A DNA stretch of 64,000 bases from Candidatus Gorgyraea atricola (GTDB taxonomy: Bacteria; Omnitrophota; Gorgyraeia; Gorgyraeales; Gorgyraeaceae): positions 24,744 through 88,743 of the forward strand of contig JAVCCW010000028.1 of assembly GCA_030765235.1 (NCBI GenBank), read 5' to 3'. How positions within the stretch are numbered: position 1 is the stretch's first letter; every line of letters begins with the position of its first letter. Made by a program: the position numbers and the translations under genes. This document shows positions 26,410 to 59,368 of the stretch, piece by piece. A model generated the notes under the pieces. The model was not told the origin of the DNA. It saw nothing but the letters and a program-made list of their open reading frames with translations, and searched no databases.

Positions 26410-26424
26410 AAGGGGAGGTTTCCG

Positions 26425-44478: not shown

Positions 44479-44491
44479 CAAGGTTTAAATT

Positions 44492-44830: not shown

Positions 44831-44832
44831 AC

Positions 44833-45687: not shown

Positions 45688-47189
45688 GACAGAAAGCAAA
45701 AAAGGATATTGTATTAATAATATTTTGTCTTTTGGCAGGGGTAATATTATTTACCAATCTGGGGAACATCTATCTCTGGCAGGATGAGGCAACAACCGCA
45801 GTTTTAGCTAAAAACACACTTGAGTTTGGGATCCCCAGGACCTTTGACGGGACTAATCTTATTACGACTATTTACTCTGACCCTTGCAAATATAGTGGAT
45901 GGAAATACGCCCCGTGGTTTCAATTTTATCTTGCGGCATTATCCTTTTACTTGTTTGGAGTCAGTACTTTTGCTGCGAGACTCCCTTTCGCTGTGTTTGG
46001 TATGGGTAGCTTGATATTGTGTTATTTACTCGCGCAGAGGCTTTTCCAGAATAGGCTCCTCTCCAGGCTATCGACCGCATTTATGCTTTTTTCCGCGCCA
46101 TTCTTTTTATATATGCGTCAGTGCAGATGGTATGGTCTTTCAGTATTTTTTACACTCTGGATTTTGATCTCGTATTTGGACATGATAAAGAAGAAGCGAT
46201 TTTCTGCATGGGGATTTGTCCTGGCAAGCAGCCTTCTCTTTCACTCAAATTATGCAATCTTTTTCCCTGTCTTGGGAGCCATGTGTTTTCACTATCTTGT
46301 GTTTCACAAAAAAGATATTGAATTAAAGAGGATATTAGGCTATCTCTCTATTATTGCTATACTCACTGTACCTTTTTTCCTCTATTCTGTAAACATGGAG
46401 TGTAGCGGGCAGATGACGTTTCTGCGTACAAAAGGTCATTTAGAATTCTATGTCCGCGTCTTAAATAAATACCTATTTCCTCTTGTATTTTTGTTTTTGA
46501 GTCTAGCTGTATTTTCCTTTTTCAAGAAAAAGGTCTTTCCTGTACTGGATAAGGCGCTGGATAGATCTCGACTCTGGTTTTTTCCGCTCGTATTTATTTT
46601 TACTATCTGTTTTCTGCTTTTAGCAGAGGAAAGACAGCTGAGGTATCTTATTCATCTTTTACCTTTATCCTGTATCCTTATGAGTTTTTTAATGATCGGG
46701 TGGCTAAAGCTGAATATTATAGTCGCTGGTCTAGTATTTGTTGTCGCATGTTTTACAAATTCATTTCACACAGGCAGCCCTTTTGCAAAGAAACTATGGA
46801 TACCCATAGTGGATATCGCTTATGAGTTGACCCATGATTATGACGGGCCAGTAGAAGGAATAATAAAGTTTTTAAATAAGAATGCGAGGCCAGGAGATAC
46901 AGTTAAATTGATCATGGGTGATTGCGCGGTTATGTTTTATACAGATTTCAAGGTAGACAATGAAGATTTTACGCAGGAATCATTCCCTGAGTGGATTATA
47001 GTGAGAAATGACTGGGTCTCGTTCAAGAGTTTAAGTGCCAGGTATCGTAGACAAATAGAATCGCAATATCAAAGAATTGAATTAAATTATCCTGATATAA
47101 TGTGGGAAAACCGGCCAGACCCTGGTTATCATAAATTCAAGACAGTAACTGACTGGCCTACTAAAGTGACGGTGTATAAGAAAAGATGA
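45684..47189 (+). CDS. ArnT/PMT-like (GT83/GT39) polytopic membrane glycosyltransferase
   Basis: 501 aa with about 11 TM helices. An N-terminal loop carries WQDEATTAVLAKN (the D-E motif of the first periplasmic loop of PMT_2 transferases). Confidence 0.6.
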   Translation: MRQKAKKDIVLIIFCLLAGVILFTNLGNIYLWQDEATTAVLAKNTLEFGIPRTFDGTNLITTIYSDPCKYSGWKYAPWFQFYLAALSFYLFGVSTFAARLPFAVFGMGSLILCYLLAQRLFQNRLLSRLSTAFMLFSAPFFLYMRQCRWYGLSVFFTLWILISYLDMIKKKRFSAWGFVLASSLLFHSNYAIFFPVLGAMCFHYLVFHKKDIELKRILGYLSIIAILTVPFFLYSVNMECSGQMTFLRTKGHLEFYVRVLNKYLFPLVFLFLSLAVFSFFKKKVFPVLDKALDRSRLWFFPLVFIFTICFLLLAEERQLRYLIHLLPLSCILMSFLMIGWLKLNIIVAGLVFVVACFTNSFHTGSPFAKKLWIPIVDIAYELTHDYDGPVEGIIKFLNKNARPGDTVKLIMGDCAVMFYTDFKVDNEDFTQESFPEWIIVRNDWVSFKSLSARYRRQIESQYQRIELNYPDIMWENRPDPGYHKFKTVTDWPTKVTVYKKR

Positions 47190-48208
47190 AGTGCGATATA
47201 ATTATTCCAGTTTGGAATCAACTCGAGTTTACCAAAAAATGCATAGAGAGTGTTTTTAGAAATACGAATTATGCGTTTCGTTTAGTTGTTATTGATAATG
47301 GAAGCGCTAAGGCTACGAGGGCCTATCTGGATGAATTGGCACGCGATAAAAAAACAGGCGTTACTGTACTTAGAAATAATGAGAATCTGGGATTCATTAA
47401 GGCCACCAACCAAGGGATAAGAGAGTCAGACGCACCTTATGTCTGCCTTTTAAATAATGATACAGAGGTCACAAAAGGCTGGCTTAAAGAAATGGTCAAT
47501 GTAGCTGAGAAGAAAAAGGATATAGGTATAGTTAATGCTAACAGTAATACCCTGGGCTGCAAGGCCAAGTTTGGCCAGTCTGTAGAATCGCTTGCAGAGG
47601 AACTGAGGTCTCACTCTGGAGAGTATAGCATGCTGGCCCAGGCTACAGGGTTTTGCATGTTGATCAAGCGAGAGATCATTGATAAGGTGGGCATTTTTGA
47701 CGAGACCTACGGAATGGGAAATTTCGAAGACGCTGACTTTAGTAAAAGGGCGCAGAGATCAGGTTATTCCTGTGTATGCGCCAGGGCATCCTACGTATAT
47801 CACAGAGAACGACGCTCATTCGTAAGATTTAGGAAGTTTGATCAGGATTTTGATCGTAATCGGGAAATATTTTACTCTAAATGGGGCAGACAAGAGAGGA
47901 TCCTTTATGTGCTTAGTCACAGTGATTCTGCATACAGGAAAGAAATAGGCAGGAGATCTCTTAAATTGGCCCGCGATGGCAATATTGTCTGGATTTTTTC
48001 AAAAGGATGTCCTGGGCAGGATATCGAAAGGCATTCCAATATTTATAGTTATAGCCTGCCAAAGAGGTTTTTTGGTATGATCAGTTTATGGAGGATACTG
48101 AAGCGCAAAAAAAAGTTTGACAAGATATACGTAGATGACGAGAATTATGGGAAGCGCTTAGGGGGTTTTAAATTTTTTCATAAAGCAGAGGTGATTCGTG
48201 GATGCTAA
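47186..48208 (+). CDS. GT2-family glycosyltransferase
   Basis: 340 aa. IIIPVWNQLEFTKKCIESV...VVIDNGSAKAT, and the DxD-region LLNNDTEV. Confidence 0.7.
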   Translation: MKCDIIIPVWNQLEFTKKCIESVFRNTNYAFRLVVIDNGSAKATRAYLDELARDKKTGVTVLRNNENLGFIKATNQGIRESDAPYVCLLNNDTEVTKGWLKEMVNVAEKKKDIGIVNANSNTLGCKAKFGQSVESLAEELRSHSGEYSMLAQATGFCMLIKREIIDKVGIFDETYGMGNFEDADFSKRAQRSGYSCVCARASYVYHRERRSFVRFRKFDQDFDRNREIFYSKWGRQERILYVLSHSDSAYRKEIGRRSLKLARDGNIVWIFSKGCPGQDIERHSNIYSYSLPKRFFGMISLWRILKRKKKFDKIYVDDENYGKRLGGFKFFHKAEVIRGC

Positions 48209-48974
48209 AATTCCTTTATCCGCAGTAATTATTACCAGAAACGAAGAGACCAATATTAAAGAGTGCCTTGAGTCAGTCAGATGGGCGGACGAGATCGTCG
48301 TGGTCGACGACGACAGTACTGACAGGACAGTGGAAATCGCCCAGGGTTATACAGATAGGATTTTTCACAGGAAAATGGATATTGAGGGCAGGCACAGGAA
48401 CTGGGCCTATAGCCAGGCGCGTAATACCTGGGTCTTGAGTCTGGATGCTGATGAGAGGGTGACTCCTGAACTGAGAAAAGAAATACAGGAAACCATATCC
48501 AATGCCGGAAACTTCGAAGGCTTTATTATCCCGCGCAGAAATTATATCGGGAATTACTGGGTCAAATACGGCGGATGGTATCCAAGCGGCCAGTTGAAGA
48601 TGTTTAGAAAAGATAAATTTTACTGGGAAGAGGCCGAGGTCCACCCCCGAGCGTTCTTGGGGACTCCTGCGGGAAGGTTAAAGAATGACATAATCCATTA
48701 TTCGTACAAGAACTTCGAGGATTTTGTCAATAAGATGAACAAGCAGACTACGCTGGAGGCGGCTAAATGGGTCAGGGATAAAAGGGGAATGAGTCTTGGC
48801 AGGGCCCTTCGCCGCACATGCGACCGTTTCCTGCGCACATTCTTTCGCAAAAAGGCGTACAAAGACGGGTTGATTGGTTTTATGGTATCGATCTTTGCCG
48901 GGCTTTATCAGATATTGAGTTATGCTAAATACTATGAACTGAAATTCGCACATAAGTTACGCGATTGCCGATGA
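48198..48974 (+). CDS. GT2-family glycosyltransferase (LPS-core KdtX/WaaE-like)
   Basis: 258 aa. GTG start. LSAVIITRNEETNIKECLESVRWADEIVVVDDDSTDRT, and LSLDADE. A paralog of 54386-55438. Confidence 0.7.
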   Translation: MDAKIPLSAVIITRNEETNIKECLESVRWADEIVVVDDDSTDRTVEIAQGYTDRIFHRKMDIEGRHRNWAYSQARNTWVLSLDADERVTPELRKEIQETISNAGNFEGFIIPRRNYIGNYWVKYGGWYPSGQLKMFRKDKFYWEEAEVHPRAFLGTPAGRLKNDIIHYSYKNFEDFVNKMNKQTTLEAAKWVRDKRGMSLGRALRRTCDRFLRTFFRKKAYKDGLIGFMVSIFAGLYQILSYAKYYELKFAHKLRDCR

Positions 48975-50005
48975 AAAAGGATTTATTGGAAATTTTAAAC
49001 TGTCCAAGCTGCACAAGTACTTTATTTTCATTGCAACAGTGTAAAGTCGATCAGATAGAGGTTAGATCCGGTAGTATAGTTTGTCAGAGTTGTGGGGCTT
49101 CTTACGGGATCGAGAGCGGTATAGTAAATTTTATCAAGGACCCCTCGCAGGGAGTGAAGCAGGAAAGAGAGGCAATGGATGCGGAGGAGTATATTACTGA
49201 CGATAAGGGCAAAAGATATAAGATTAATGAAGAGACAATAGAAAGATTTAAAGATAAATTTCTTTCTATGCCAGAAGGTGATGGCTCACATTTTTTTAGA
49301 AATAGAGGCAGTTTTCAAGCTATTGCAAATATATCTTCCAGAGTCTATTCTACCCTTGATGGTTTGAAGCTCACAGGCAAGGAACACATACTTGAAATAG
49401 GGGCGTGTTTTTCCTATGCCTCTTTTAAGTTCGCCAAAAAAGGGTGTCGTGTCGTGGCTATAGACATAAGCAATTATCTCAAGGTTGCGGATCTTTTTGT
49501 TAAAGAAGCATATTTTGACAGGATGTTTTGCGACATGCATAAGACACCATTTGGAGACGAAACATTTGATATTATATTTGGTTCGGCAGTCCTTCATCAC
49601 AGTAAGGAGTTGTCCCTGGTTTTCAAAGAGATGCGCCGTATTTTAAAACCAGACGGGCGCCTAGTATTGATCAACGAAGTAGCAAGAGGTCTTTTTGAAA
49701 AGGTGCACCCTATATTTGAAAAAATGCAGAAACAAGGCTACGGAGATACTTCTTATACTTTAACAGAATGGCAAAAGGCAGCATACAAAGGCGGCTTTAA
49801 GAATGTGAGGATTGATTTTTTATCGCTTGCAGACGATTATATAACAAGGCACAAGAATAAGGATTTGCAGGATCAGGATAGTGTTAAGCTTAGACTTGCA
49901 AAGTTTTTTAAAACGCATATAATACTAGAAAAATGCCTGTCTTTTCTTTTGATTCCGCCGAGGCTTTTTTTTAGGCCAAAAAGCTGGAAGATTACATGTT
50001 ATTAG
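48971..50005 (+). CDS. class I SAM methyltransferase with N-terminal Trm112-like zinc ribbon
   Basis: ATGA overlap. LEILNCPSCTS...CQSCGASYGIESGIVNF, then ILEIGACFSYASFKFAKKGCRVVAIDIS, DIIFGSAVLHH and LKPDGRLVL. Confidence 0.6.
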   Translation: MKKDLLEILNCPSCTSTLFSLQQCKVDQIEVRSGSIVCQSCGASYGIESGIVNFIKDPSQGVKQEREAMDAEEYITDDKGKRYKINEETIERFKDKFLSMPEGDGSHFFRNRGSFQAIANISSRVYSTLDGLKLTGKEHILEIGACFSYASFKFAKKGCRVVAIDISNYLKVADLFVKEAYFDRMFCDMHKTPFGDETFDIIFGSAVLHHSKELSLVFKEMRRILKPDGRLVLINEVARGLFEKVHPIFEKMQKQGYGDTSYTLTEWQKAAYKGGFKNVRIDFLSLADDYITRHKNKDLQDQDSVKLRLAKFFKTHIILEKCLSFLLIPPRLFFRPKSWKITCY

Positions 50006-50015
50006 GAGGTAAGAT

Positions 50016-50609
50016 ATGGGAATGCGATTAGCAGATAAAGTTCAGTCAATTTTTTATATTAATAGATTAAAGAAGCTTGACAAGGTCAAGGGATATCTTG
50101 GTTTAAACGAGGGTTTTCTGCTATTTAAGATCGCGAGATCGCTCAGGGAAAATTCGGTGATCGTGGAGATAGGTAGTTTTAAAGGAAAGTCCACTTGTTT
50201 TATAGCAGAAGGCATAGGTGACAAAAAAATGCAGTTTTTTTGTATCGATCCCTGGAGGGACGACCTGATGCAGGAAAAAGGAGATGCGATATTTAACGAA
50301 TTCCTGCAAAATACAAAAGAATATAAGGACAGGTTCAGTGTATTGCGGGGATTTTCCCATGAAGTGATCATGGAGTGGCCCGTACACAGAAAGATAGATT
50401 TTCTGTGGGTCGACGGAGATCATTCTTACGAAGGAGTTAAGGAGGATATTCTTAATTGGATGCCTCTGGTTAAAAAGAACAGTTTTATTTGTTTTCATGA
50501 CTATAGGGACGCGCCTGGAGTTAAAAAAGCAGTGGATGAATTGGCGAGAGACAATAAGATCAAATTTATTAAGAGAGTAGGATGTACCTATGTTTCAAAA
50601 TTACTTTAG
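50016..50609 (+). CDS. class I SAM-dependent O-methyltransferase-like protein (TylF/CmcI-type fold)
   Basis: 197 aa. IVEIGSFKGKST...FLWVDGDHSYEGVKEDILNW...FHDY. AGGAGG RBS. Confidence 0.6.
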   Translation: MGMRLADKVQSIFYINRLKKLDKVKGYLGLNEGFLLFKIARSLRENSVIVEIGSFKGKSTCFIAEGIGDKKMQFFCIDPWRDDLMQEKGDAIFNEFLQNTKEYKDRFSVLRGFSHEVIMEWPVHRKIDFLWVDGDHSYEGVKEDILNWMPLVKKNSFICFHDYRDAPGVKKAVDELARDNKIKFIKRVGCTYVSKLL

Positions 50610-51705
50610 AGGCATAAAGAAGAAAGATAGAAAAAAAAGGATCCTTTTTGCGGGGATCTCTCCTACTAATTTTGTTCAGTTTGCGCCAATCTATGAAGTT
50701 CTTAAACAAGATTCCAGAATTGAGGTTTTTTTATCAGGGATGTCTCATGGTAAAGATCGGCCGCAGGATATCTACAGGTATTTTGACGTGGACAAAAAAT
50801 TTATAATAAAAGAAAAAGTGGCAAAGCGCTTTTATTTCGATATATACGTAAGTCCTGATTTCCATTTAGTAGGTAAAAGACACGGTGTAAGCGTGCAGAT
50901 GTTCCATGGTAACTCATTCAGAAATTTTTCCATAAACGAAGAGGCAAAGAATTTTGATCACCTTTTCCTGATGGGCTCATATATGAAGCGCAAATTTTTA
51001 GAATTGGGAATTTTTAAAGAGGGAGAAAGTAGGTTTGAAGAAATAGGGATGCCTCAGACAGATGCTCTTTTGAACAATACAGATACGGGATTGCGTGAAA
51101 AACTTAATTTGAATAAAAAGTTTGCTACCGTACTCTATGCCCCGGTCTGGGCCCATATGGAAAGTTTCCTGGAAGATGTACGGAGAACCTTACAGGAGTT
51201 GACCTCGCTTGAGGTAAATCTACTCGTGAAGATGCACCATGGTTTTTATTCTAAGGAATTAAATAAGATTAAATGGCAAGAATATCTAGATGAGCTTTTA
51301 AAGAAAAATATAAATATGCACTTGATAAAAGATTTTGATATTGTGCCGTATATGCGCATTAGTGATTTACTTGTAAGCGATGCAAGCGGAGTCGTGCATC
51401 AATTTTCCATATTAGATAGGCCGATCGTATGTATAAAGATAGACATCGATGAATTCAGAAAAGGTTATCCAAACCTTGATCAGGCGGCGTATGCGAATCG
51501 TGCAGTCGTAGAGGTCTCTACAGGAGAATCCCTGAAGGAAGCTGTACTGAAAGAGCTTGCTGATCCCGGTAGGTTAAGCCGACAAAGATTGGCTATGGCC
51601 AAGGAGTATTTTTATAATATTGGTTTTTCTACTAAATATGCTATCTCAAGACTTTATCGTTTTCTTAATAAGGAGCCTTTACAATACAGAGAGAAGGAGA
51701 TATGA
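50590..51705 (+). CDS. CDP-glycerol glycerophosphotransferase-family protein (TagB/TagF-like)
   Basis: 371 aa. VLYAPVWAH matches the YAPTWR region, and HLIKDFDIVPYMRISDLLVSDASGVVHQFSILDRPIVCIKID matches the C-terminal catalytic region of Glyphos_transf. Confidence 0.6.
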   Translation: MFQNYFRGIKKKDRKKRILFAGISPTNFVQFAPIYEVLKQDSRIEVFLSGMSHGKDRPQDIYRYFDVDKKFIIKEKVAKRFYFDIYVSPDFHLVGKRHGVSVQMFHGNSFRNFSINEEAKNFDHLFLMGSYMKRKFLELGIFKEGESRFEEIGMPQTDALLNNTDTGLREKLNLNKKFATVLYAPVWAHMESFLEDVRRTLQELTSLEVNLLVKMHHGFYSKELNKIKWQEYLDELLKKNINMHLIKDFDIVPYMRISDLLVSDASGVVHQFSILDRPIVCIKIDIDEFRKGYPNLDQAAYANRAVVEVSTGESLKEAVLKELADPGRLSRQRLAMAKEYFYNIGFSTKYAISRLYRFLNKEPLQYREKEI

Positions 51706-52454
51706 AAGCCATTATTATTGCTGCTGGGATAGGGTCACGTTTAAACCCTTTAACCAGCAACAAACCTAAATGTATGTTAGAAATAAACGACAGGACCTTA
51801 TTGCAGCATCAGATTGAGGCGCTGAGGGGTGCTGGGATAGATAGAATAGTTTTAATTAAAGGATATAAGAAAGAGATGATAAATTATCCTGATTTAGTTT
51901 ATTACATCAATGACGATTACAAGAACAATAACATCCTCCACTCTTTATTTTATGCTGAAAAAGAAATGAATAATGCATTTATAGCAGCTTATTCAGATAT
52001 TTTTTACACTAAAGATATAGTGGAAAGGTTGCTTGAGAGCAAAGAGGATATATCGATAGTAGTGGATATAGATTGGAAAGGTTATTATGAAGGCAGGACA
52101 GACCATCCTATCAGTGAGGCGGAAAATGTTATCTTTGACGCGGATAATAATGTAGTCAAGATCGGCAAGATCCTGCCGGATGAAGATGCTGTCCATGGTG
52201 AATTTATCGGCATGATGAAATGTTCAAAAAAAGGTGCGCTTATTTTTAGGAAATATTTTAATAGGTTAAAAGAGATTTACAAAGGAAGGCCGTTCCAGAG
52301 GGCCGGCGTATTTGAAAAGTCATATCTGACAGATATATTTCAGGACATGGCTGATTGCGGCGTGAAGATCAACTGTGTGATTATAGAAAAGGGCTGGGCT
52401 GAGATAGATACGGTCCAGGATTATAAGCGTATATTAAAGGATAAGGAGACGTAA
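51702..52454 (+). CDS. LicC-like nucleotidyltransferase (CTP:phospho-alcohol cytidylyltransferase family)
   Basis: 250 aa. MKAIIIAAGIGSRLNPLTSNKPKCMLEIN is the G-x-G-x-R NTP-transferase motif. Collinear with LicC/sugar-phosphate nucleotidyltransferases. The substrate is inferred from neighbours only. Confidence 0.65.
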   Translation: MKAIIIAAGIGSRLNPLTSNKPKCMLEINDRTLLQHQIEALRGAGIDRIVLIKGYKKEMINYPDLVYYINDDYKNNNILHSLFYAEKEMNNAFIAAYSDIFYTKDIVERLLESKEDISIVVDIDWKGYYEGRTDHPISEAENVIFDADNNVVKIGKILPDEDAVHGEFIGMMKCSKKGALIFRKYFNRLKEIYKGRPFQRAGVFEKSYLTDIFQDMADCGVKINCVIIEKGWAEIDTVQDYKRILKDKET

Positions 52455-53101
52455 TGAAGTTGGTCAAGTTTTGGTTATTATTTACAGCAGCATTTTTTTG
52501 CTGCGCTTCACTTGTGCATGCAAGTGATGATACTGAGTACTGGAGCATGCATACCTTTAGCGCAAAGATAAACGAAAGGGTAAAATTGAATCTGCTCGAG
52601 GAATTTCGTATGAAAAGTGACATGGGTAATTTCTATACCTATGTCCAGTATGTCGGCGCAAGTTATAAGGTAAGCGACTATTTTGATGTGGCAGGATGGT
52701 ATAAGCTGGTTTCATCAAAGGCAAATCAGAATTGGACCGAGACTCACCGGTATGACATAGACGGGACATTAAAGATAGACCTGGATGGCTTTAAACTCTC
52801 TAATAGGTCAAGGTTTGAGCGGAATACAAATGCCTCATCATGGCTATATAGAGACAGGATAAAGGTGACAAAGAAGGTAAAACTATTCGACAGAGATTAC
52901 ACACCTTTTCTTTCCAATGAATTCTTTTTGGATATAGAGCCCAATGATGGCTATCACGAAAACAGAGCCAGCGGAGGCATTAGCACAGATTTTATATGGG
53001 GCACAAAACTGACTCTATATTATATGTCACTCGCCAAAAAGAGCAGTGGAGAGTGGAATAGCGCGAATGTAATCGGGACTACTGTAGGGGTTAGTTTTTA
53101 A
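52454..53101 (+). CDS. secreted putative outer-membrane beta-barrel protein (DUF2490-like)
   Basis: 215 aa. Signal peptide MKLVKFWLLFTAAFFCCASLVHA. Alternating hydrophobic/aromatic beta-strand pattern, and a C-terminal aromatic ...VGVSF. Confidence 0.4.
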   Translation: MKLVKFWLLFTAAFFCCASLVHASDDTEYWSMHTFSAKINERVKLNLLEEFRMKSDMGNFYTYVQYVGASYKVSDYFDVAGWYKLVSSKANQNWTETHRYDIDGTLKIDLDGFKLSNRSRFERNTNASSWLYRDRIKVTKKVKLFDRDYTPFLSNEFFLDIEPNDGYHENRASGGISTDFIWGTKLTLYYMSLAKKSSGEWNSANVIGTTVGVSF

Positions 53102-53127
53102 AATTTCTAGAAAAGGAGATTTAAAAA

Positions 53128-54333
53128 GTGAAGAACAATAAGGCAATATTTTGGAACATCTGGACATCTTATGCCACATATTATTTTGGCAAGGTAAATT
53201 TGAGCATAGTAGTGCCGGCGTTATTGGCGACATATAAGAATCTGGATTTATATACTGTTGGTTTAGTTTCGAGTGGTTTTTTCTTTGCGTATGCGCTTGG
53301 TCAATTTTTGCATGGTCAGATTTCAGAGCGGCACAATCCTTTTGTTTATATCGCAATAGGGTTAATTGGTTCTGCCATAATGAACCTGATCCTTGGTTTT
53401 TCCGGAGGTTTTTTTATAATGTTATTTCTTGGAGAGGTCCTTGACGGATTTTTTCAATCAATGGGTTGGTCATCCTGTGTAAGGGCGAATGCCTTGATCC
53501 AAAAGGATAAAGACAGAGAAAGATCCTCTACGATACTAGGGACTTCCTACCAAGTAGGTAATTCAGTGGCATGGCTTATATCTTCTTTTGCTGTCGGCAC
53601 ATGGGGCTGGCAGGCAGGTTTCTGGGTTGCGAGCGGTTTTTTATTCGCTAGGGGGATATTATTGCTATTGACAAAACCAAAGATGGAGATTGCGCCTCCT
53701 CAGAAAGTCAAGGTCCAGATAAAGAATACTTTATCTTTTCCGATCGTGCTGAGTGGCATATCACTTTGTTTATTAAATATGGTGAGATATGGTGTTATTA
53801 CGTGGATACCGTTATATTTCTTTAAGACAGGGAATTTTACAGTGGAGCAGATGGGAAAGGTCGGTCTGAAAGTATTTTTGATTCCTATAGCAGGTGTTCT
53901 GGGCACATTGATATATAATAAGCTCAAGATCAACAGGGATATCCTTACTATTATATGTCTGATAATGCTGGCGATCAGCTTTTTTGTGTTACCCTTTACT
54001 ACAGGTTTGTTGGCGACGTTTGTATTATTGATCGGTAGTTTCTTTCTGTACGGCCCCCATGTTTTTTTAGTAACAACATTTCCGACCCGTTTTGTGGATA
54101 AACAGGTAGTTGCAGCCTCCACAGGATTTATAGATGGAATGGGCTATATCGGAACGGTATTAATAGGCATAATTGTCCCATTTTTGGTTACATCAGCCGC
54201 AGGTAAATGGGAGAATGTATTTATATTCTGGGGGATCCTTTCGATTATGGTGGCTGTCGTTGTTGCTATTGTCTATATTAGGAGTTTTAGAGATAAGACG
54301 ATAGATTTCTTAGCGCTTAAGAATAACAGGTGA
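53128..54333 (+). CDS. MFS transporter, organophosphate:Pi antiporter family (GlpT/UhpT-like)
   Basis: 401 aa. GTG start with AAGGAG RBS. GFFQSMGWSSCVRANALIQKDKDRERSSTILGTSYQVGNSVAWL aligns with the GlpT [25 protein letters not shown] region. 12 TM helices. Confidence 0.7.
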   Translation: MKNNKAIFWNIWTSYATYYFGKVNLSIVVPALLATYKNLDLYTVGLVSSGFFFAYALGQFLHGQISERHNPFVYIAIGLIGSAIMNLILGFSGGFFIMLFLGEVLDGFFQSMGWSSCVRANALIQKDKDRERSSTILGTSYQVGNSVAWLISSFAVGTWGWQAGFWVASGFLFARGILLLLTKPKMEIAPPQKVKVQIKNTLSFPIVLSGISLCLLNMVRYGVITWIPLYFFKTGNFTVEQMGKVGLKVFLIPIAGVLGTLIYNKLKINRDILTIICLIMLAISFFVLPFTTGLLATFVLLIGSFFLYGPHVFLVTTFPTRFVDKQVVAASTGFIDGMGYIGTVLIGIIVPFLVTSAAGKWENVFIFWGILSIMVAVVVAIVYIRSFRDKTIDFLALKNNR

Positions 54334-54385
54334 GAGCCAATGAGTACGAAGACGATTTATCCTTAAAAAATAAAGGGATTCAGGG

Positions 54386-55438
54386 ATGGCGACAGTCTCA
54401 ATAGGAATAATCTGTCAGGACAATGAAAATATTATTCGGGATTGTCTGGAAAGCGCCAAATGGGCTGATGAGATAGTCGTGGTAGATGCCTTCAGCAAGG
54501 ATAGGACCGTGGAAATCGTCAGAGAATACACGAATAAGATATACCAGCATAAAGTAGACAGGCACCTGAATGAACAATGGAACAGGGCTATAGGTTATGC
54601 GACCTGCGATTGGTTCTTTCATCTTTCGACAGACCAGCGATTTACGCCTCAGTTGCGGGACGAGATCAGGAGAGTAGTTCAAAAAAAAGAACGATATGCG
54701 GCTTATTACGTGCCTCTGGAAAATTATTTTCTTGGTAAATGGATACAGTACTGCGGTTGGTCCCCTGATTACAATATAATGTTTCACAAAAGAGACAAGG
54801 GGGTCTGCTCAGATAAAGAAGGCGGCCTTTTAATGGTAGACGGCGAGATAGGGTATCTTAAGAGCAGGTTGATCCATTATTCTCACACAGGGATCTCCAG
54901 TACTATAAGCAAGGAAAACATGCTTTCCACCAGGGAAGCCGAATACTTTTTAGAGACAAAGACGTCTTTTAGAAGAAGGTTTATACTGACTAAGGCACTT
55001 CGGAACTTCAGAAAGACCTATTGGAAACAAGAGGGTTATAAAGACGGGATGTACGGGTTGGTTTTTTGTTTGATTTTTTCTTTTAATAAATTTTTGATTT
55101 ACGCGAAATACTGGAATATGCTTCAAAGACAGAAGAGAAATTCCTGTGTATGTGAAGATATCAGTCTGCTTGTAGAAAGAGAGAATCATGATACATCTTT
55201 ACTAGCAGAAAGATTATTAAAAGAACGCGGGATAACGGGTGAAAAAGAAATGAGATATCAAATGACTGTTGTTCCGTTAAGGCTTTTCTTGAAGACTTAT
55301 ATTGGGAAGACGGAATTCCGCCAGGGTGTCCGTGGCCTCACTCATTGCATCTTTAATGCGTATATTCATGCGATAAAATGGTCTAAGTATTGGGAATTAA
55401 GTTGTGTAAAAAAGATAAAACCGCAGAATAATACATAA
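54386..55438 (+). CDS. GT2-family glycosyltransferase with C-terminal extension (paralog of 48198-48974)
   Basis: 350 aa. VSIGIICQDNENIIRDCLESAKWADEIVVVDAFSKDRT. Confidence 0.65.
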   Translation: MATVSIGIICQDNENIIRDCLESAKWADEIVVVDAFSKDRTVEIVREYTNKIYQHKVDRHLNEQWNRAIGYATCDWFFHLSTDQRFTPQLRDEIRRVVQKKERYAAYYVPLENYFLGKWIQYCGWSPDYNIMFHKRDKGVCSDKEGGLLMVDGEIGYLKSRLIHYSHTGISSTISKENMLSTREAEYFLETKTSFRRRFILTKALRNFRKTYWKQEGYKDGMYGLVFCLIFSFNKFLIYAKYWNMLQRQKRNSCVCEDISLLVERENHDTSLLAERLLKERGITGEKEMRYQMTVVPLRLFLKTYIGKTEFRQGVRGLTHCIFNAYIHAIKWSKYWELSCVKKIKPQNNT

Positions 55439-55452
55439 GGACACTTTTTATT

Positions 55453-56577
55453 ATGGCAAAAAAAATTCTATTTGTTTTTGGCACGCGCCCGGAGGTCATT
55501 AAGATGGCGCCTGTTATCGAGCTTGCGAGAGAGTCAGGGGTTGGGCTGGACCCCGTTGTTTGTGTTACAGGCCAGCATCGACATCTTTTGGATCAGGCAT
55601 TGACTGAATTTGATATCAAGCCAGATATCGACCTTGATCTGATGAGGACTGATCAGAGTTTAGATGGTATCGTATCCGGGGTTTTGCGCGGCATGCAAGA
55701 GGTCTATCATAAGGTCTGTCCTGAGGTTGTCTTAGTGCAGGGAGATACCTCTACGGTGTTTGCTGCAACCCTCGCCTGTTATTATAACGGCATAGATGTC
55801 GGACACATCGAGGCAGGGTTACGCTCCGGAGACAACCAGAATCCTTTTCCTGAGGAGGTAAACAGGCGGTTTGTCTCACTTATCGCGAAATATAATTTTT
55901 GCCCGACCCAGGATGCGAAGAAAAATTTATTAAAAGAGGCTGTGCGTCCTGAAAAGATATTTGTTACAGGCAATACAATAGTCGATGCGCTTGAGAGGAC
56001 CTTAAATATAATTGGTTCAAGACAGATGTCTATTAATGGAGTTGACCGGGAATTCCTGCAAAAGCCATTTGCCCTTATTACAGGACACAGAAGGGAAAAT
56101 TTTGATGGGGGCATGAAGGATATCTGCGAGGCCATCAAGTCTCTGGCAAAAAAACACAGCGCCTTTCACTGGCTGTGGTCAATGCATCTGAATCCAAATG
56201 CCAGGGATGTTGTTTTTAAAATCCTCGATGGTTTAGAAAACGTCAGATTAATAGAGCCTCCTCCGTATAGAGAGTTTGTATACCTGATGAACCGCTCTAG
56301 ATTTATTATCTCAGACTCTGGAGGCGTGCAGGAAGAGGCCCCGTCATTGGGAAAGACTGTGCTTGTAACCAGGGTGTGCACAGAGCGGCCAGAGGCCATT
56401 AAATCCGGCACGTCTATTTTAGTGGGCACAGACCCAGCCAGGATAACAAAAGAAGTAGATAGACTGCTGAAGGATAGAGGGCCTGCAAAGAAAACAAAAA
56501 ATCCTTTTGGCGACGGCCTGGCTGGGACAAGGATCATAGACATTATTACTAAAGGAAGCTATAAGGAATTTCGCTAA
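55453..56577 (+). CDS. wecB: UDP-N-acetylglucosamine 2-epimerase (non-hydrolysing)
   Basis: 374 aa. KILFVFGTRPEVIKMAPVI...VTGQHRHLLDQ...HIEAGLRS...GNTIVDAL...SDSGGVQEEAPSLGK. Confidence 0.85.
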   Translation: MAKKILFVFGTRPEVIKMAPVIELARESGVGLDPVVCVTGQHRHLLDQALTEFDIKPDIDLDLMRTDQSLDGIVSGVLRGMQEVYHKVCPEVVLVQGDTSTVFAATLACYYNGIDVGHIEAGLRSGDNQNPFPEEVNRRFVSLIAKYNFCPTQDAKKNLLKEAVRPEKIFVTGNTIVDALERTLNIIGSRQMSINGVDREFLQKPFALITGHRRENFDGGMKDICEAIKSLAKKHSAFHWLWSMHLNPNARDVVFKILDGLENVRLIEPPPYREFVYLMNRSRFIISDSGGVQEEAPSLGKTVLVTRVCTERPEAIKSGTSILVGTDPARITKEVDRLLKDRGPAKKTKNPFGDGLAGTRIIDIITKGSYKEFR

Positions 56578-57462
56578 ATGAAAACTAAATACGAGACAGT
56601 TTCGCAGTGTAATCTCTGCGAAAGCATTAAAAACAGGGTCGTTGATGAAAGGGGCCACATAGTGCAGTGTGAAAACTGCGGCCTGAGGTTTGTGAATTTG
56701 CGCCTGACCCAGGATGCCATCTCCACGGATTATGATCACAGCTATGTAAATATCCCTGGCTGGGGCAAGGTGGATGCAGAGGCGCAACTGATGTACAAAA
56801 GAAGAGCGGATTTTTTAAACAGGTTTATCCAGAGAGGCAGGATCCTGGACGTGGCTGCGGGTCTGGGAGAATTTTTATCACATGTTAAAAAGACAGGCAG
56901 GTGGGAGTGTCTTGGCACAGAGACATCGCGATACGCGATCGAGTTTATAAAAAAGGAATTTGGTATCGAACTTTCTTTCGGGCAGCTTGAAGGCTTGAGG
57001 TATCCGGATGGTTTTTTTGATGCGGTCTGTTTCTGGCATGCGCTGGAGCATATGCCGGACCCATCGATCGTAATAAAAGAGGCCTGGCGCATTTTAAAGG
57101 ATAATGGTTTTTTGTTCATTGCCGTGCCCAATGATTCATGGCTTGGCAGGAGGCATTTTTTTAAAAATGCGCTCAGAAAGGTCGTCAACCACATGCCATT
57201 AAAAAGAAAATTGAAAATAAAAAAGATGTATCCTGAGATTGACGAAGAAGGCAACAAACACCTTTTTTATTTTACGCCGCGGACCCTGACGAGATTACTG
57301 AAAAAATATGGTTTCAAGGTCAGGGCGCGTTCAGTGGATTATGATTACGGGAAGCCAGATCCTAAATTGGAAAGAAGATACAGATTTGATGTGCTATTTT
57401 GCCGTTTTACAGGGCTTAATATTTCTAACGCCATTTTAATCGCAGCGCAGAAGAAAAGTTAG
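56578..57462 (+). CDS. class I SAM methyltransferase with N-terminal zinc ribbon
   Basis: 294 aa. CNLCES...CENCG, then ILDVAAGLGEF...FDAVCFWHALEHMPDP. Confidence 0.6.
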   Translation: MKTKYETVSQCNLCESIKNRVVDERGHIVQCENCGLRFVNLRLTQDAISTDYDHSYVNIPGWGKVDAEAQLMYKRRADFLNRFIQRGRILDVAAGLGEFLSHVKKTGRWECLGTETSRYAIEFIKKEFGIELSFGQLEGLRYPDGFFDAVCFWHALEHMPDPSIVIKEAWRILKDNGFLFIAVPNDSWLGRRHFFKNALRKVVNHMPLKRKLKIKKMYPEIDEEGNKHLFYFTPRTLTRLLKKYGFKVRARSVDYDYGKPDPKLERRYRFDVLFCRFTGLNISNAILIAAQKKS

Positions 57463-57479
57463 GGAAGATATAAGGAGGA

Positions 57480-58523
57480 ATGATGAAGGTATTAGTGACA
57501 GGTGGGGCAGGGTTAGTCGGATCGCATACAGCAGAGTATTATTCAAAGAAGGGTGATGAGGTGATCGTACTGGATAATCTGATGCGCTCTAATCTATTCG
57601 GATACAATAAGGAGAGCGTGGAGTTTAACTGGAACTATCTGAGCCAGCTCGAAAACGTAAAGAGGATAAAAGGGGACATAAGAGAAGAAAAGGACGTGAT
57701 GAAGGCGCTGGGTGACGGCGTGGATGCAGTGATACATACTGCGGGCCAGCCAGGCGTGCCGCTTTCCATGAAGATCCCGAGAGAAGACTTTAGTATAAAC
57801 GCCTATGGCACGCTTAATGTCCTTGAATGTCTCAGGCAGGTCTCGCCAAAGGCTGCGTTTGTGTATTGCTCCACAAATAAGATCTACGGAGAGAATGTGG
57901 ACAGCATTACACTGGAAGAAGAAGAGACAAGATATAGGTATAAAACTAAAAAAGGTGTTCCTGAGACACTGTCTGTGGACCTGACTGGCCATACGCCTTA
58001 TGGCGCTTCGAAATATACAGGCGATATCTATACGCAGGAATACGGACATATCTACGGCATGAAGACAGCAGTGTTTCGCATGTCATGTATCTATGGCACA
58101 AGGCAGTTTGGTTTTGAGGATCAGGGCTGGGTAGCATGGTTTGTCATAGCGAATCTGACAGGCCAGCCCATCATTGTCTACGGCGACGGAAAACAGGTAA
58201 GGGACTTACTGTACGTGGATGATCTAGTAGAGGCCTATGACAAGTTCATACACGGCGAGGCAATGCATGACGTGTTTAATATTGGCGGCGGGCCAAGGAA
58301 CACTACCTCGCTCCTGGAGTTTATAGCATTGATAGAAAAGAAAACAGGCATCAAGTTCAGGAAAATAGATCACAAGGAGTGGCGGCCAAGTGACCAGAAG
58401 GTATACATCTCTGACATCGGCAAGGTCTCAAAGTCACTCACCTGGAAACCAAAGCATACACCCGAGAAAGGCCTGGAAAAACTGATCGAATGGGTTGGCA
58501 GTAACACAAAATACTTTATTTAA
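57480..58523 (+). CDS. NAD-dependent nucleotide-sugar epimerase/dehydratase (extended SDR)
   Basis: 347 aa. MKVLVTGGAGLVGSH, the catalytic YGASKYTGD, and NIGGGPRNTTSL. Confidence 0.8.
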   Translation: MMKVLVTGGAGLVGSHTAEYYSKKGDEVIVLDNLMRSNLFGYNKESVEFNWNYLSQLENVKRIKGDIREEKDVMKALGDGVDAVIHTAGQPGVPLSMKIPREDFSINAYGTLNVLECLRQVSPKAAFVYCSTNKIYGENVDSITLEEEETRYRYKTKKGVPETLSVDLTGHTPYGASKYTGDIYTQEYGHIYGMKTAVFRMSCIYGTRQFGFEDQGWVAWFVIANLTGQPIIVYGDGKQVRDLLYVDDLVEAYDKFIHGEAMHDVFNIGGGPRNTTSLLEFIALIEKKTGIKFRKIDHKEWRPSDQKVYISDIGKVSKSLTWKPKHTPEKGLEKLIEWVGSNTKYFI

Positions 58524-58526
58524 TAA

Positions 58527-58656
58527 CACGGAGGTTGCGGAATGTTACGGAATGTTAGAGAAGGTTACGGAAGGTTACAAGAGGCGATGGATTTCAGCGC
58601 TTTTAGTGTAACATTCCGCAACCTTCCGAAACATTCCGCAACCTTATGTAACATCC
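58527..58656. repeat. about 130-nt imperfect palindrome built from GGTTGCGGAATGTT/ACGGAA units between the epimerase and gmhB
   Basis: ggaggttgcggaatgttacggaatgttagagaaggttacggaaggttaca ... tgtaacattccgcaaccttccgaaacattccgcaaccttatgtaacat. Confidence 0.6.
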
Positions 58657-58672
58657 AAGGATATTCCATATC

Positions 58673-59367: not shown

Positions 59368-59368
59368 T

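What the first reader, a model, noticed from the sequence alone, without database searches (positions are those of the whole stretch)
50590..54333. Glycerol-phosphate (or phospho-alcohol) decoration cassette: TagF-like transferase + LicC-like cytidylyltransferase + secreted OM barrel + GlpT-like antiporter
Four consecutive genes together provide:
- import of an organophosphate (MFS GlpT/UhpT signature GFFQSMGW...)
- CTP activation (LicC-like NTP-transferase N-terminus)
- polymerisation or transfer (TagB/TagF-type Glyphos_transf motifs)

A small outer-membrane protein is also present. In Gram-positives this chemistry makes teichoic acids. In a diderm it implies glycerol-phosphate-, ribitol-phosphate- or phosphocholine-type substitution of LPS or capsule using an imported precursor.
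Basis: inference. Interest (0 to 1): 0.55.

Follow-up and report, generated by a model that had tools for sequence, protein, structure and literature searches.

The report
Imported head-group surface decoration cassette
Four adjacent genes in an Omnitrophota genome appear to import a small phosphorus compound, most likely a phosphonate rather than glycerol-phosphate, activate it with CTP and attach it to a surface glycan, and the same module recurs from SAR11 to methanogens.

Summary
Four tightly packed + strand genes encode a TagF-like phosphotransferase (50590-51705), a LicC/PntC-type cytidylyltransferase (51702-52454), a secreted DUF2490 outer-membrane barrel (52454-53101) and a GlpT-like MFS transporter (53128-54333). 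They sit in a large glycan cluster of Candidatus Gorgyraea atricola (Omnitrophota).

The named substrate is probably wrong.
- Orthologues of the cytidylyltransferase are 50-86% identical across bacteria and archaea.
- They sit next to this MFS, next to a PhnD-type phosphonate ABC importer (about 46 loci, mostly SAR11), or inside PEP-mutase/Ppd/Fe-ADH/MpnS phosphonate operons.
- These contexts intermix in the enzyme's tree.
- At least 49 of 53 informative MFS orthologues lie beside a cytidylyltransferase, of either of two unrelated folds.
- DUF2490 alternates with phosphate-selective porin O/P.

My best reading is salvage of an exogenous small phosphonate (HEP or methylphosphonate class) for glycan decoration. 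Glycerol-3-phosphate and phosphocholine remain rivals. All of this rests on gene context; nothing has been tested biochemically. It is a new variant of the Lic/Pnt head-group tailoring systems. Interest is moderate to high.

The parts
50590..51705 (+). TagF-like (Glyphos_transf) phosphotransferase, 371 aa. Predicted to transfer the CMP/CDP-activated head group to a glycan acceptor.
   Evidence: Pfam PF04464 4.4e-17, 62.5 bits, above the cutoff. PDB TagF 3l7m 1.6e-7. The family alignment has invariant H106 (QxFHG), K214, H216, D264 and S266. It is the only candidate CDP/CMP-X transferase in the window. It is a remote homologue of the GTB4 family that sits next to cytidylyltransferase orthologues in 26 loci (hhalign 99.75%, E 2.8e-27).
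51702..52454 (+). LicC/PntC-type cytidylyltransferase ('NTPt'), 250 aa. Predicted reaction: CTP + phosphonate (or phospho-alcohol) gives the CMP/CDP conjugate + PPi.
   Evidence: It carries the GXGSRX8PK signature (G9-G11-S12-R13...P22-K23). PDB sequence matches: LicC 2e-23, PntC 1e-13. The AlphaFold model has pLDDT 92; top Foldseek hits are PntC 6pd2 4.8e-18, LicC 5.8e-17 and IPCT 4jd0. Orthologues are 50-86% identical in 80+ loci.
52454..53101 (+). DUF2490 outer-membrane beta-barrel, 215 aa, with a signal peptide. Inferred to be the outer-membrane channel for the imported compound.
   Evidence: Pfam PF10677 3.9e-23. The AlphaFold model has pLDDT 89.6, a signal helix at 2-18 and then 11-12 strands. 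Foldseek finds only 12-14-strand outer-membrane barrels at TM about 0.5. The subfamily is compact, 44 proteins, several on the same contigs as NTPt orthologues. Porin_O_P takes its place in orthologous cassettes.
53128..54333 (+). OPA-like MFS transporter, 401 aa, GTG start. Inferred inner-membrane importer, possibly a Pi antiporter, of the cytidylyltransferase substrate.
   Evidence: MFS_1 4.1e-35. The NCBIfam PgtP/UhpC/GlpT models match but below their cutoffs. GlpT 1pw4 4.5e-20, with K22 at GlpT R45 and invariant R220 at GlpT R269. Orthologues are 56-86% identical, including 73% in Methanocellales archaea. At least 49 of 53 informative loci have a cytidylyltransferase gene adjacent.
50016..50609 (+). 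Methyltransf_24 class I methyltransferase, 197 aa. It overlaps the TagF-like start by 20 bp and is a probable accessory tailoring enzyme.
   Evidence: Pfam PF13578 1.4e-25. The same gene directly precedes the TagF-like gene in L173 and L174.
36768..61191 (+). Surrounding co-directional glycan-biosynthesis array that probably builds the acceptor. It includes GT2 x4, GT9 heptosyltransferase-like, PMT_2/ArnT-like, DegT aminotransferases, a B12-radical SAM enzyme, UDP-GlcNAc 2-epimerase, an NAD-epimerase, a GmhB-like HAD phosphatase and an MGDG-synthase-like GT28.
   Evidence: Pfam scans.

Best explanation
The four genes form an uptake-coupled head-group tailoring cassette. Proposed steps:
1. A small anionic organophosphorus compound crosses the outer membrane through the DUF2490 barrel.
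2. The OPA-like MFS carries it across the inner membrane, probably in exchange for phosphate.
3. The LicC/PntC-type cytidylyltransferase converts it with CTP into a CMP- (or CDP-) conjugate.
4. The TagF-like enzyme transfers it, releasing CMP, onto a hydroxyl of the surface glycan built by the neighbouring glycosyltransferases.

The compound is most likely a small phosphonate of the 2-hydroxyethylphosphonate/methylphosphonate class. The cell takes it from the environment, because the 64-kb window encodes no route to make it.

What is shown: the family assignments, the conserved synteny, and the near-obligate pairing of transporter with cytidylyltransferase. What is inferred: the direction of transport, the channel role of DUF2490, the identity of the substrate, and the acceptor.
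For: Coupling of transport to activation
- The MFS lies directly downstream of the cytidylyltransferase in 15 genome loci, at 69-86% identity, including archaea.
- Searching from the MFS side, 53 metagenome loci had at least 800 bp upstream. Of these, 20 carry a LicC-like gene, 28 a TagD-fold gene and 1 both. Two of the remaining four carry a more divergent NTP-transferase.
- Two unrelated enzyme folds therefore alternate beside one transporter.

Import
- About 46 of 84 loci have a PhnD/ABC/PhnE-type binding-protein importer in place of the MFS. The hits are Pfam Phosphonate-bd 5.7e-48 and NCBIfam TIGR01098 above its cutoff. The best PDB matches are phosphite/methylphosphonate binders 5jvb/5lq1 and PtxB.
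- The outer-membrane partner is either DUF2490 or Porin_O_P.

Link to phosphonates
- A true PEP mutase (TIGR02320, 364 bits against a cutoff of 319), a true phosphonopyruvate decarboxylase (325 against 312) and a Phn-type Fe-ADH lie directly beside cytidylyltransferase orthologues.
- A methylphosphonate synthase homologue (PDB 6b9s, 6.6e-81) does too.
- Fourteen of 84 loci carry such genes.
- The MFS itself lies between PepM and Fe-ADH in L093, and after Ppd-PepM in L150.
- The TagD-fold enzymes beside the MFS are 35-50% identical to the cytidylyltransferase domain fused to SAR11 PepM.
- In the cytidylyltransferase tree, MFS, ABC and PepM contexts intermix. The window's clade includes L003, which has a PepM context, at 68% identity.

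Substrate character
- At the position of the amine-binding Glu104 of PntC the family has an invariant Tyr97. At the second acidic position it has an invariant Gln214 (PMC6697681).

Precedents
- AepP is a GlpT-related MFS that imports 2-aminoethylphosphonate (PMC8316502).
- CMP-phosphonates are the known activated donors (PMC6697681).

Transferase
- TagF-like or GTB4 genes lie next to the cytidylyltransferase in 28 of 84 loci.
- LicD-like or CDP-alcohol transferases take that role elsewhere.

No PepM, Ppd, Fe-ADH, MpnS, TagD-like or LicD gene is present in the window.
Against: - Everything about function rests on gene context. No substrate has been tested.
- The window itself has no phosphonate gene, and only 64 kb of the genome was seen.
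- The best characterised sequence relative of the cytidylyltransferase is the phosphocholine enzyme LicC.
- TagF-family enzymes characterised so far use CDP-glycerol or CDP-ribitol (established knowledge).
- The closest orthologues of the TagF-like gene (59-68% identity) in three sister Omnitrophota contigs are followed by a genuine sulfate adenylyltransferase, not by this module. The TagF-like gene may therefore not depend on the adjacent cytidylyltransferase.
- About 20 cassettes pair a CDP-alcohol phosphotransferase with a SAM methyltransferase. That would suit an amine head group (AEP, phosphoethanolamine) better than HEP or methylphosphonate.
- The MFS has lost the GlpT K80/H165 equivalents and has an invariant Asp336, which could suit a zwitterion.
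- The alignment behind Gln214 is low-confidence.
- In PepM-containing loci an importer seems redundant, so an export role is not excluded.
Confidence: 0.5

Rival explanations
1. The MFS imports sn-glycerol-3-phosphate (or another polyol phosphate such as ribitol-5-phosphate). The LicC-like enzyme makes CDP-glycerol. The TagF-like enzyme adds glycerol-phosphate units to LPS or capsule, giving a teichoic-acid-like decoration in a diderm.
For: - The MFS's nearest characterised relatives are GlpT, UhpC and PgtP.
- Pfam assigns the transferase to the CDP-glycerol glycerophosphotransferase family.
- In 28 of 53 informative MFS loci the adjacent cytidylyltransferase has the TagD fold, PF01467.
- LicC-fold enzymes that make CDP-2-glycerol are known in pneumococcal capsule synthesis (own knowledge).
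Against: - Glycerol-3-phosphate is an endogenous metabolite, so a dedicated outer-membrane channel and importer would be unnecessary.
- The MFS scores 82-109 bits against curated cutoffs of 408-748, and lacks the GlpT K80 and H165 equivalents.
- In orthologous cassettes the MFS is replaced by PhnD-type phosphonate ABC importers, not by Ugp/Glp systems.
- The TagD-fold enzymes resemble the PepM-fused domain (E 1e-22 to 1e-47) more than the TagD model (1.7e-13, 51 bits against a cutoff of 165).
- Recurrent neighbours are PepM, Ppd, Fe-ADH and MpnS, not glycerol metabolism genes.
Confidence: 0.15
2. A Lic-like pathway for an amine head group. Phosphocholine, phosphoethanolamine or 2-aminoethylphosphonate is imported already phosphorylated, so no kinase is needed. 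It is converted to the CDP/CMP conjugate and transferred to glycan here, or to lipid in cassettes that carry a CDP-alcohol phosphotransferase.
For: - LicC is the best sequence match (2e-23), and NCBI names the protein a 'phosphocholine cytidylyltransferase family protein'.
- PntC (AEP) is the best fold match.
- AepP is a precedent for an OPA-type AEP importer (PMC8316502).
- Many cassettes carry a CDP-alcohol phosphotransferase plus a class I methyltransferase, reminiscent of Kennedy-type lipid head-group pathways.
- The invariant Asp336 in the MFS could bind an amine.
Against: - The acidic residues that contact the amine in PntC (E104/E196) and LicC (D105/D192) align with invariant Tyr97 and Gln214 (PMC6697681).
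- The window has no LicA, LicB or LicD.
- Where a biosynthetic route sits next to an orthologue, it has an Fe-ADH and often an MpnS/HppE-like oxygenase, which is the HEP branch. No AEP transaminase was recognised.
Confidence: 0.15
3. The genes are neighbours but not one pathway. The TagF-like enzyme uses a donor made elsewhere (for example CDP-glycerol). Separately, the cytidylyltransferase-barrel-MFS module serves another purpose, such as export or exchange of a phosphonate, or trapping of a scavenged phosphorus source.
For: - TagF-like orthologues in L087, L170 and L171 keep the flanking synteny but have sulfate adenylyltransferase plus a 181-aa gene in place of the module.
- The MFS also occurs inside PepM operons, where import seems redundant.
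- OPA-family carriers are exchangers, so direction depends on gradients (established knowledge).
Against: - The TagF-like gene is the only possible CDP/CMP-X transferase in the window.
- The closest relatives L172-L174 keep TagF-like and the module together.
- TagF-like/GTB4, LicD-like or CDP-alcohol transferases accompany the cytidylyltransferase or the MFS in most loci.
- The alternative transporters are binding-protein-dependent ABC systems, which only import.
- No catabolic phosphonate genes (C-P lyase, PhnWX, PhnA) appeared among the recurrent neighbour clusters of at least 3-4 loci that were annotated; rarer neighbours were not annotated and no catabolic-gene query was run.
Confidence: 0.1

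Closest known systems
lic1 / Lic phosphocholine decoration pathway (LicB importer, LicA kinase, LicC cytidylyltransferase, LicD transferase) of Haemophilus influenzae and Streptococcus pneumoniae
   Same: The logic is the same: take a head group from the environment, activate it with CTP using a LicC-fold enzyme, and transfer it to a surface glycan. LicC is the best sequence match of the window enzyme.
   Different: There is no kinase. The importer is an OPA-like MFS plus an outer-membrane barrel, not an EamA-type LicB. The transferase is TagF-like, not LicD. The residues aligned with LicC's amine-binding aspartates are Tyr97 and Gln214.
Pnt (phosphonyl tailoring) pathways: PepM-Ppd-(AEPT or Fe-ADH) plus PntC or Fom1-type cytidylyltransferase making CMP-AEP or CMP-HEP (Rice et al. 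2019, PMC6697681; Li & Horsman 2022, PMC8942020)
   Same: PntC is the best fold match. Orthologues of the window cytidylyltransferase lie inside PepM/Ppd/Fe-ADH/MpnS operons. CMP-phosphonate would be the donor.
   Different: The window has no PepM pathway. Supply would come from import. The partner transferase is TagF-like, whereas that paper mentions LicD-like enzymes and glycosyltransferases. The paper's main text does not mention transporters.
AepP, the GlpT-related MFS importer of 2-aminoethylphosphonate in Pseudomonas putida BIRD-1 (Murphy et al. 2021, PMC8316502)
   Same: It is an OPA-family MFS, distantly related to GlpT, that retains the phosphate-binding basic residues and carries a phosphonate inward.
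   Different: AepP is co-localised with catabolic genes (PhnWAY/PhnWX) and serves nutrition. The window MFS is co-localised with cytidylyltransferases and transferases, an anabolic use.
TagF/TagB CDP-glycerol glycerophosphotransferases, and TagF-like capsule polymerases of Gram-negative pathogens
   Same: Same Pfam family, above its cutoff. The motifs around two invariant histidines are conserved. The chemistry is the same: a hydroxyl attacks the distal phosphorus of a CMP-linked donor and CMP leaves.
   Different: The protein is a single domain of 371 aa with only 34 bits to TagF. The NCBIfam TarF model scores 34 against a cutoff of 550. The donor is probably not CDP-glycerol. There is no TagD/TagO/TagGH context in the window.
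Campylobacter jejuni O-methyl phosphoramidate pathway (Cj1416 cytidylyltransferase, Cj1415 APS-kinase-like enzyme) (own knowledge)
   Same: A LicC-fold cytidylyltransferase activates an unusual phosphorus head group for capsule decoration. APS-kinase-like genes accompany orthologues in 14 loci plus L001 and L003, sometimes with sulfotransferase-like genes.
   Different: The window has no APS-kinase-like, glutamine kinase or amidohydrolase gene. The APS kinases may simply belong to sulfation modules, since a genuine sulfate adenylyltransferase occurs in sister loci.

Membership tests
Glyphos_transf (TagB/TagF, PF04464) | Profile match above the curated Pfam threshold | tested here: met
   62.5 bits against a gathering score of 22.1, residues 96-292. 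All 120 listed homologues carry PF04464.
Glyphos_transf (TagB/TagF, PF04464) | Two active-site histidines (TagF H444 and H584) | tested here: inconclusive
   H106 (QMFHG) and H216 (KMH) are invariant in 30 homologues and in the remote GTB4 family. However, phmmer did not place H216 opposite TagF H584. The correspondence rests on motif position only.
Glyphos_transf (TagB/TagF, PF04464) | Use of CDP-glycerol or CDP-ribitol as donor | not testable with these tools
   This needs an enzyme assay. The equivalog model TarF scores 34 bits against a cutoff of 550.
LicC/PntC-type cytidylyltransferases | GXG(T/S)RX4-8PK nucleotide-binding signature | tested here: met
   AAGIGSRLNPLTSNKPK, with G9, G11, R13, P22 and K23 invariant. 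The signature is as given in PMC6697681.
LicC/PntC-type cytidylyltransferases | Closest in sequence and fold to LicC/PntC rather than to sugar-1-phosphate nucleotidyltransferases | tested here: met
   The profile against PDB gives LicC 2e-23 and PntC 1e-13, then ST0452 3.9e-13. Foldseek gives PntC 4.8e-18, LicC 5.8e-17 and IPCT 9.7e-16, with RmlA/GlmU-type at 1e-14 or weaker. The margin is small.
LicC/PntC-type cytidylyltransferases | Acidic pair contacting the substrate amine (PntC E104/E196; LicC D105/D192) | tested here: not met
   The aligned positions are invariant Tyr97 (well-aligned region) and Gln214 (weakly aligned region) (residues from PMC6697681). This argues against AEP or phosphocholine as substrate. 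It does not argue against the fold family.
Organophosphate:Pi antiporter family (GlpT/UhpT/PgtP, TC 2.A.1.4) | Score above the curated family or subfamily thresholds | tested here: not met
   TIGR00881 108.9 against 407.75. UhpC 92.3 against 564. GlpT 82 against 633-748. It is OPA-like, not a curated member.
Organophosphate:Pi antiporter family (GlpT/UhpT/PgtP, TC 2.A.1.4) | Basic residues in TM1 and TM7 that bind phosphate (GlpT R45, R269) | tested here: met
   K22 (Arg in divergent members L024 and L065) and invariant R220 align with them.
Organophosphate:Pi antiporter family (GlpT/UhpT/PgtP, TC 2.A.1.4) | GlpT K80 and H165 equivalents | tested here: not met
   Q59 and Y141/Q142 occupy the aligned positions and are invariant or nearly invariant (Q142) in the family.
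DUF2490 putative porins (PF10677, TC 1.B.81) | Profile match, signal peptide, beta-barrel | tested here: met
   82.6 bits against 29.8. The model has pLDDT 89.6, a signal helix, then 11-12 strands and a C-terminal Phe. Foldseek hits are only outer-membrane barrels. A pore function has not been established for any member (PMC4827864).
lic1-type operon | Choline kinase LicA, EamA-type LicB and LicD transferase present | tested here: not met
   No LicD-like or EamA hit in the window by tblastn. No kinase gene lies in or next to the cassette.
Pnt phosphonate tailoring cluster | PEP mutase (with Ppd) in the same neighbourhood | tested here: not met
   No PepM, Ppd, Fe-ADH or MpnS anywhere in the 64-kb window. 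Orthologues of the cytidylyltransferase and of the MFS do lie in such clusters elsewhere. The rest of the genome was not available.
Wall teichoic acid pathway | TagD-type glycerol-3-phosphate cytidylyltransferase and export/priming genes alongside TagF | tested here: not met
   No TagD-fold gene in the window. The neighbouring genes are GT2/GT9/PMT_2-type glycan genes.

The most novel reading that the evidence does not exclude
A widespread, horizontally mobile module lets cells that cannot make phosphonates decorate their surface glycans or lipids with phosphonates scavenged from the environment. The module combines an outer-membrane channel (DUF2490 or porin O/P), an importer (this OPA-like MFS or a PhnD-type ABC system), a cytidylyltransferase of either of two folds, and a TagF-like, LicD-like or CDP-alcohol transferase. 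In SAR11 the importer version and the PepM-Ppd-FeADH-MpnS version occupy the same place next to the same HTH-fused cytidylyltransferase. If so, many pepM-negative cells could still produce the methyl- and hydroxyethyl-phosphonate esters found in marine dissolved organic matter. DUF2490 would gain its first function, as a phosphonate channel. TagF-like enzymes would gain a new donor class.
Probability: 0.35. Interest if true: 0.8.

Novelty: new variant of a known kind. Interest (0 to 1): 0.65.

Why it matters
Phosphonates make up roughly a quarter of marine dissolved organic phosphorus, and methylphosphonate esters are the proposed source of aerobic ocean methane (PMC8931226, PMC9381506). Production is currently attributed only to cells that carry pepM.

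If this cassette salvages exogenous phosphonate for surface decoration, several things follow.
- Phosphonate uptake genes could no longer be read simply as nutrient-scavenging markers.
- pepM-negative lineages (many SAR11, Omnitrophota, some methanogens) would join the producers of phosphonate-bearing polymers.
- Three poorly understood families would get testable functions: DUF2490, this OPA-like MFS clade, and the short TagF-like/GTB4 enzymes.

Even on the conservative reading, it is a clear case of two unrelated cytidylyltransferase folds being exchanged next to one transporter. It is also a transporter about 73% identical between bacteria and archaea.

Tried and rejected
- **Exact-sequence look-up of the TagF-like protein.** It found nothing on record. 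The source was identified through the cytidylyltransferase instead.
- **Promoter and terminator scan of 49500-55000.** It gave no more sites than shuffled sequence, so operon structure rests on spacing only.
- **Foldseek of the DUF2490 model.** No specific solved relative came up, only generic 12-14-strand barrels at TM about 0.5. No substrate clue.
- **A MeOPN-like idea.** The thought was that APS-kinase-like and sulfotransferase-like neighbours use a 3'-phospho-CMP-X donor. It could not be tested. It is weakened because sister loci carry a bona fide sulfate adenylyltransferase, so these may be ordinary sulfation genes. None of these genes is in the window.
- **Origin of the N-terminal HTH of fused cytidylyltransferases.** I tested whether it derives from the HTH of HppE/MpnS-like cupins. 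Only two weak BLAST hits appeared (E 5e-4 and 2e-3), so I dropped the idea.
- **Annotating the 181-aa gene after the sulfate adenylyltransferase.** No Pfam or NCBIfam hit. There is only a weak pyruvate-kinase fragment match.
- **Oxalate/formate or nitrate transporter, and sugar-1-phosphate nucleotidyltransferase.** Considered and rejected.

Full report
**What is there.** The window is entirely + strand coding, with a steady positive GC skew. A 100% identical protein in the public collection places it in Candidatus Gorgyraea atricola, phylum Omnitrophota.

- 50590-51705 encodes a 371-aa protein matching Pfam Glyphos_transf above threshold. Its best solved relative is TagF.
- 51702-52454 encodes a 250-aa nucleotidyltransferase with the GXGSRX8PK signature.
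- 52454-53101 encodes a 215-aa DUF2490 protein with a signal peptide.
- 53128-54333 encodes a 401-aa MFS carrier. Its only solved relatives are GlpT and SLC37A2.

The genes overlap by 4 and 1 bp, or are 26 bp apart. The methyltransferase upstream overlaps the first gene by 20 bp. They lie in a 24-kb co-directional array of GT2, GT9, PMT_2, aminotransferase, epimerase and methyltransferase genes. A consensus scan found no more promoters or terminators than expected by chance.

**The individual proteins.**
- *Cytidylyltransferase.* A family profile matches LicC (2e-23) and then PntC (1e-13) in the PDB. An AlphaFold model (pLDDT 92) matches PntC, LicC and the Thermotoga inositol-phosphate cytidylyltransferase best. 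RmlA/GlmU-type enzymes follow narrowly.
- *MFS.* It matches the NCBIfam PgtP/UhpC/GlpT models only far below their cutoffs. It keeps a basic residue at GlpT R45 (K22) and the invariant R220 at GlpT R269. It has Gln and Tyr where GlpT has K80 and H165, and it has an invariant Asp336. It is OPA-like but a clade of its own. No oxalate/formate or nitrate transporter appears among its hits.
- *DUF2490.* The model (pLDDT 89.6) is a signal helix followed by 11-12 strands ending in Phe. Foldseek returns only generic outer-membrane barrels. The family is listed as a putative porin of unknown function (PMC4827864). Invariant Arg/Asp/Glu residues alternate along its strands.
- *TagF-like protein.* Its family has invariant H106, K214, H216, D264 and S266.

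**Conservation of the cassette.** Three contigs from close relatives (L172-L174) carry methyltransferase, TagF-like, cytidylyltransferase, DUF2490, a second methyltransferase and MFS, in that order. The window lacks only the second methyltransferase.

The components evolve at very different rates.
- The cytidylyltransferase has orthologues 50-86% identical in Omnitrophota, SAR11, Rhodospirillales, Planctomycetia, Aminicenantes, KSB1, CPR bacteria, Methanocellales and Nanoarchaeota.
- The MFS is 69-86% identical in 12 of those loci, including 73% in archaea.
- The TagF-like gene falls to 37% identity outside a handful of Omnitrophota.

**What travels with the cytidylyltransferase.** I called and clustered ORFs within 6 kb of the gene in 84 loci.
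- Forty-six loci have, directly downstream, a PhnD-type binding protein plus an ABC ATPase and a PhnE-type permease. The hits are Pfam Phosphonate-bd at 5.7e-48, and NCBIfam 'phosphate/phosphite/phosphonate' subfamily above its cutoff. The best solved relatives are the phosphite/methylphosphonate binders 5jvb/5lq1 and PtxB.
- Thirty-two of these 46 loci (of the 35 SAR11 loci in the set) are SAR11, where the enzyme carries an N-terminal HTH domain.
- Fifteen loci have the MFS.
- The outer-membrane partner is DUF2490 in six loci and Porin_O_P in six.
- Fourteen loci carry phosphonate-biosynthesis genes next to the enzyme. These are a true PEP mutase, a true phosphonopyruvate decarboxylase, a Phn-type Fe-ADH, a methylphosphonate synthase homologue (6b9s, 6.6e-81), and a half-size HTH-cupin.
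- In SAR11 locus L040 the order is TagF-like relative, PepM, Ppd, Fe-ADH, HTH-cytidylyltransferase, MpnS. In L076 the PepM genes and the ABC importer flank the same enzyme.
- In a neighbour-joining tree of the enzyme the MFS, ABC and PepM contexts intermix. The window's own clade contains an ABC locus (75% identity) and a PepM locus (68%).

**What travels with the MFS.** I searched metagenomes from the MFS side and clustered the neighbours.
- Fifty-three loci had at least 800 bp upstream. Of these, 20 have a LicC-like cytidylyltransferase, 28 have a small TagD-fold cytidylyltransferase (PF01467) and one has both.
- Two of the remaining four have a more divergent NTP-transferase.
- Two unrelated enzyme folds that catalyse the same kind of reaction therefore alternate beside one transporter. 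This is strong evidence that the transporter supplies their substrate.
- The TagD-fold enzymes are 35-50% identical to the cytidylyltransferase domain fused to SAR11 PEP mutase. Their match to the TagD model is much weaker.
- In L093 and L150 the MFS itself sits among PepM, Ppd and Fe-ADH.
- The accompanying transferases are TagF-like, LicD-like or CDP-alcohol phosphotransferases. A class I methyltransferase and a Nudix hydrolase are frequent extras.

**The transferase.** The 26-locus GTB4 family next to the cytidylyltransferase has no Pfam Glyphos_transf hit of its own. It aligns with the window's TagF-like family at 99.75% probability over 342 columns, sharing the FH(G), APxW, (K/R)xH and (S/T)DxS motifs. 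With it, 28 of 84 loci pair the enzyme with a TagF-type protein. In the window the TagF-like gene is the only conceivable acceptor-side enzyme. No LicD, CDP-alcohol transferase, sulfotransferase-like or sulfatase-like gene was found.

**Interpretation.** The substrate is the open point.

Several observations point to a small phosphonate.
- The cytidylyltransferase, the alternative cytidylyltransferase fold and the MFS each have orthologues embedded in PEP-mutase operons.
- The alternative importer is of the phosphonate/phosphite type.
- An OPA-type phosphonate importer (AepP) and CMP-phosphonate donors are established (PMC8316502, PMC6697681).

Where a pathway is encoded it is the Fe-ADH branch, often with MpnS or a related cupin. 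This suggests 2-hydroxyethylphosphonate or methylphosphonate, the two phosphonates reported as polysaccharide esters in marine organic matter (PMC8942020). Consistently, the residue aligned with the amine-binding Glu104 of PntC is an invariant Tyr. The window has no phosphonate biosynthesis gene, so here supply would come from uptake.

**Reasons for caution.**
- No biochemical data exist.
- LicC is the nearest characterised sequence.
- Characterised TagF enzymes use CDP-polyols.
- The cassettes with a CDP-alcohol transferase and a methyltransferase would suit an amine head group.
- The closest TagF-like orthologues (59-68% identity) in three sister Omnitrophota contigs keep the flanking synteny. 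However, they are followed by a genuine sulfate adenylyltransferase and a conserved 181-aa protein, not by this module.
- That slot may be a hot spot for alternative 'activated anion' supply modules. Alternatively, the TagF-like enzyme may be independent of its downstream neighbour.

I put the phosphonate-salvage reading at about 0.5. Glycerol- or polyol-phosphate and amine head groups are at about 0.15 each. A non-functional adjacency or an export role is at about 0.1.

**Novelty.** Lic and Pnt pathways are known, as are OPA-type phosphonate import and TagF-like enzymes in diderms. Four things appear new.
- The combination itself.
- The dedicated outer-membrane and inner-membrane uptake front end feeding an anabolic cytidylyltransferase without a kinase.
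- The exchange of that front end with a PEP-mutase pathway at the same locus.
- The exchange of two cytidylyltransferase folds beside one transporter.

The main text of the key papers read here does not mention such a transporter link. I rate it a new variant of a known kind.

Noticed in passing
L087:6001-8760, L170:869-3632, L171:7001-9761 (sister Omnitrophota contigs): The closest orthologues of the window's TagF-like gene are each followed, overlapping or within 25 bp, by a bona fide sulfate adenylyltransferase and a conserved 181-aa protein of unknown family. Flanks are syntenic with the window. A TagF-like enzyme coupled to APS would be unusual.
   Followed up: partly
L040, L076 versus L031-L082 (SAR11 single-cell genomes): In SAR11 an HTH-fused copy of the cytidylyltransferase sits at one genomic position, between ilvD/manC and zur/znuCB. 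Its partner there is either a PhnD-ABC-PhnE importer, or PepM-Ppd-FeADH-MpnS, or both. This looks like a swap between biosynthesis and import.
   Followed up: partly
window 53101-53128; L172:3131-3877, L173:6178-6924: The closest relatives have a 248-aa class I methyltransferase between DUF2490 and the MFS. That methyltransferase recurs in about 20 cassettes. The window has only a 26-bp gap there.
   Followed up: partly
L034:10853-12049, L058:10843-12045: The MFS is 71-73% and the cytidylyltransferase 61-63% identical between this bacterium and Methanocellales archaea. This implies recent inter-domain transfer of the pair. In the archaea it sits with a CDP-alcohol phosphotransferase.
   Followed up: partly
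L055, L064, L078, L084, L085: A 240-aa HTH-plus-cupin protein directly follows the cytidylyltransferase in five loci, twice next to PepM. It is half the size of MpnS/HepD and has an HppE-like architecture. Its function is unknown.
   Followed up: partly
window 52454-53101: The DUF2490 subfamily has many invariant charged residues alternating along its strands (D101, D103, R118, R120, E122, R133, E156, E169, R171), presumably lining the lumen. [quoted passage not shown]
   Followed up: no
window 10702-16713: A 2003-aa secreted protein with subtilase, beta-helix, PKD, Ig-like and dockerin domains. It is one of the very long proteins typical of Omnitrophota.
   Followed up: no
window 18216-28386: Type II secretion / type IV pilus genes are present: a GspE-like ATPase, a GspF-like platform protein and a secretin.
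   Followed up: no
window 1-64000: Every long ORF but one (35532-36653) is on the + strand, and GC skew is positive in all 32 bins. This is consistent with one replichore's leading strand.
   Followed up: no
L001:6753-11213, L003, L008, L053: In some Omnitrophota loci the cytidylyltransferase is flanked by a sulfotransferase-like protein (about 400-440 aa) and an APS-kinase-like protein instead of a TagF-like gene. This recalls the Campylobacter Cj1415/Cj1416 pair.
   Followed up: partly
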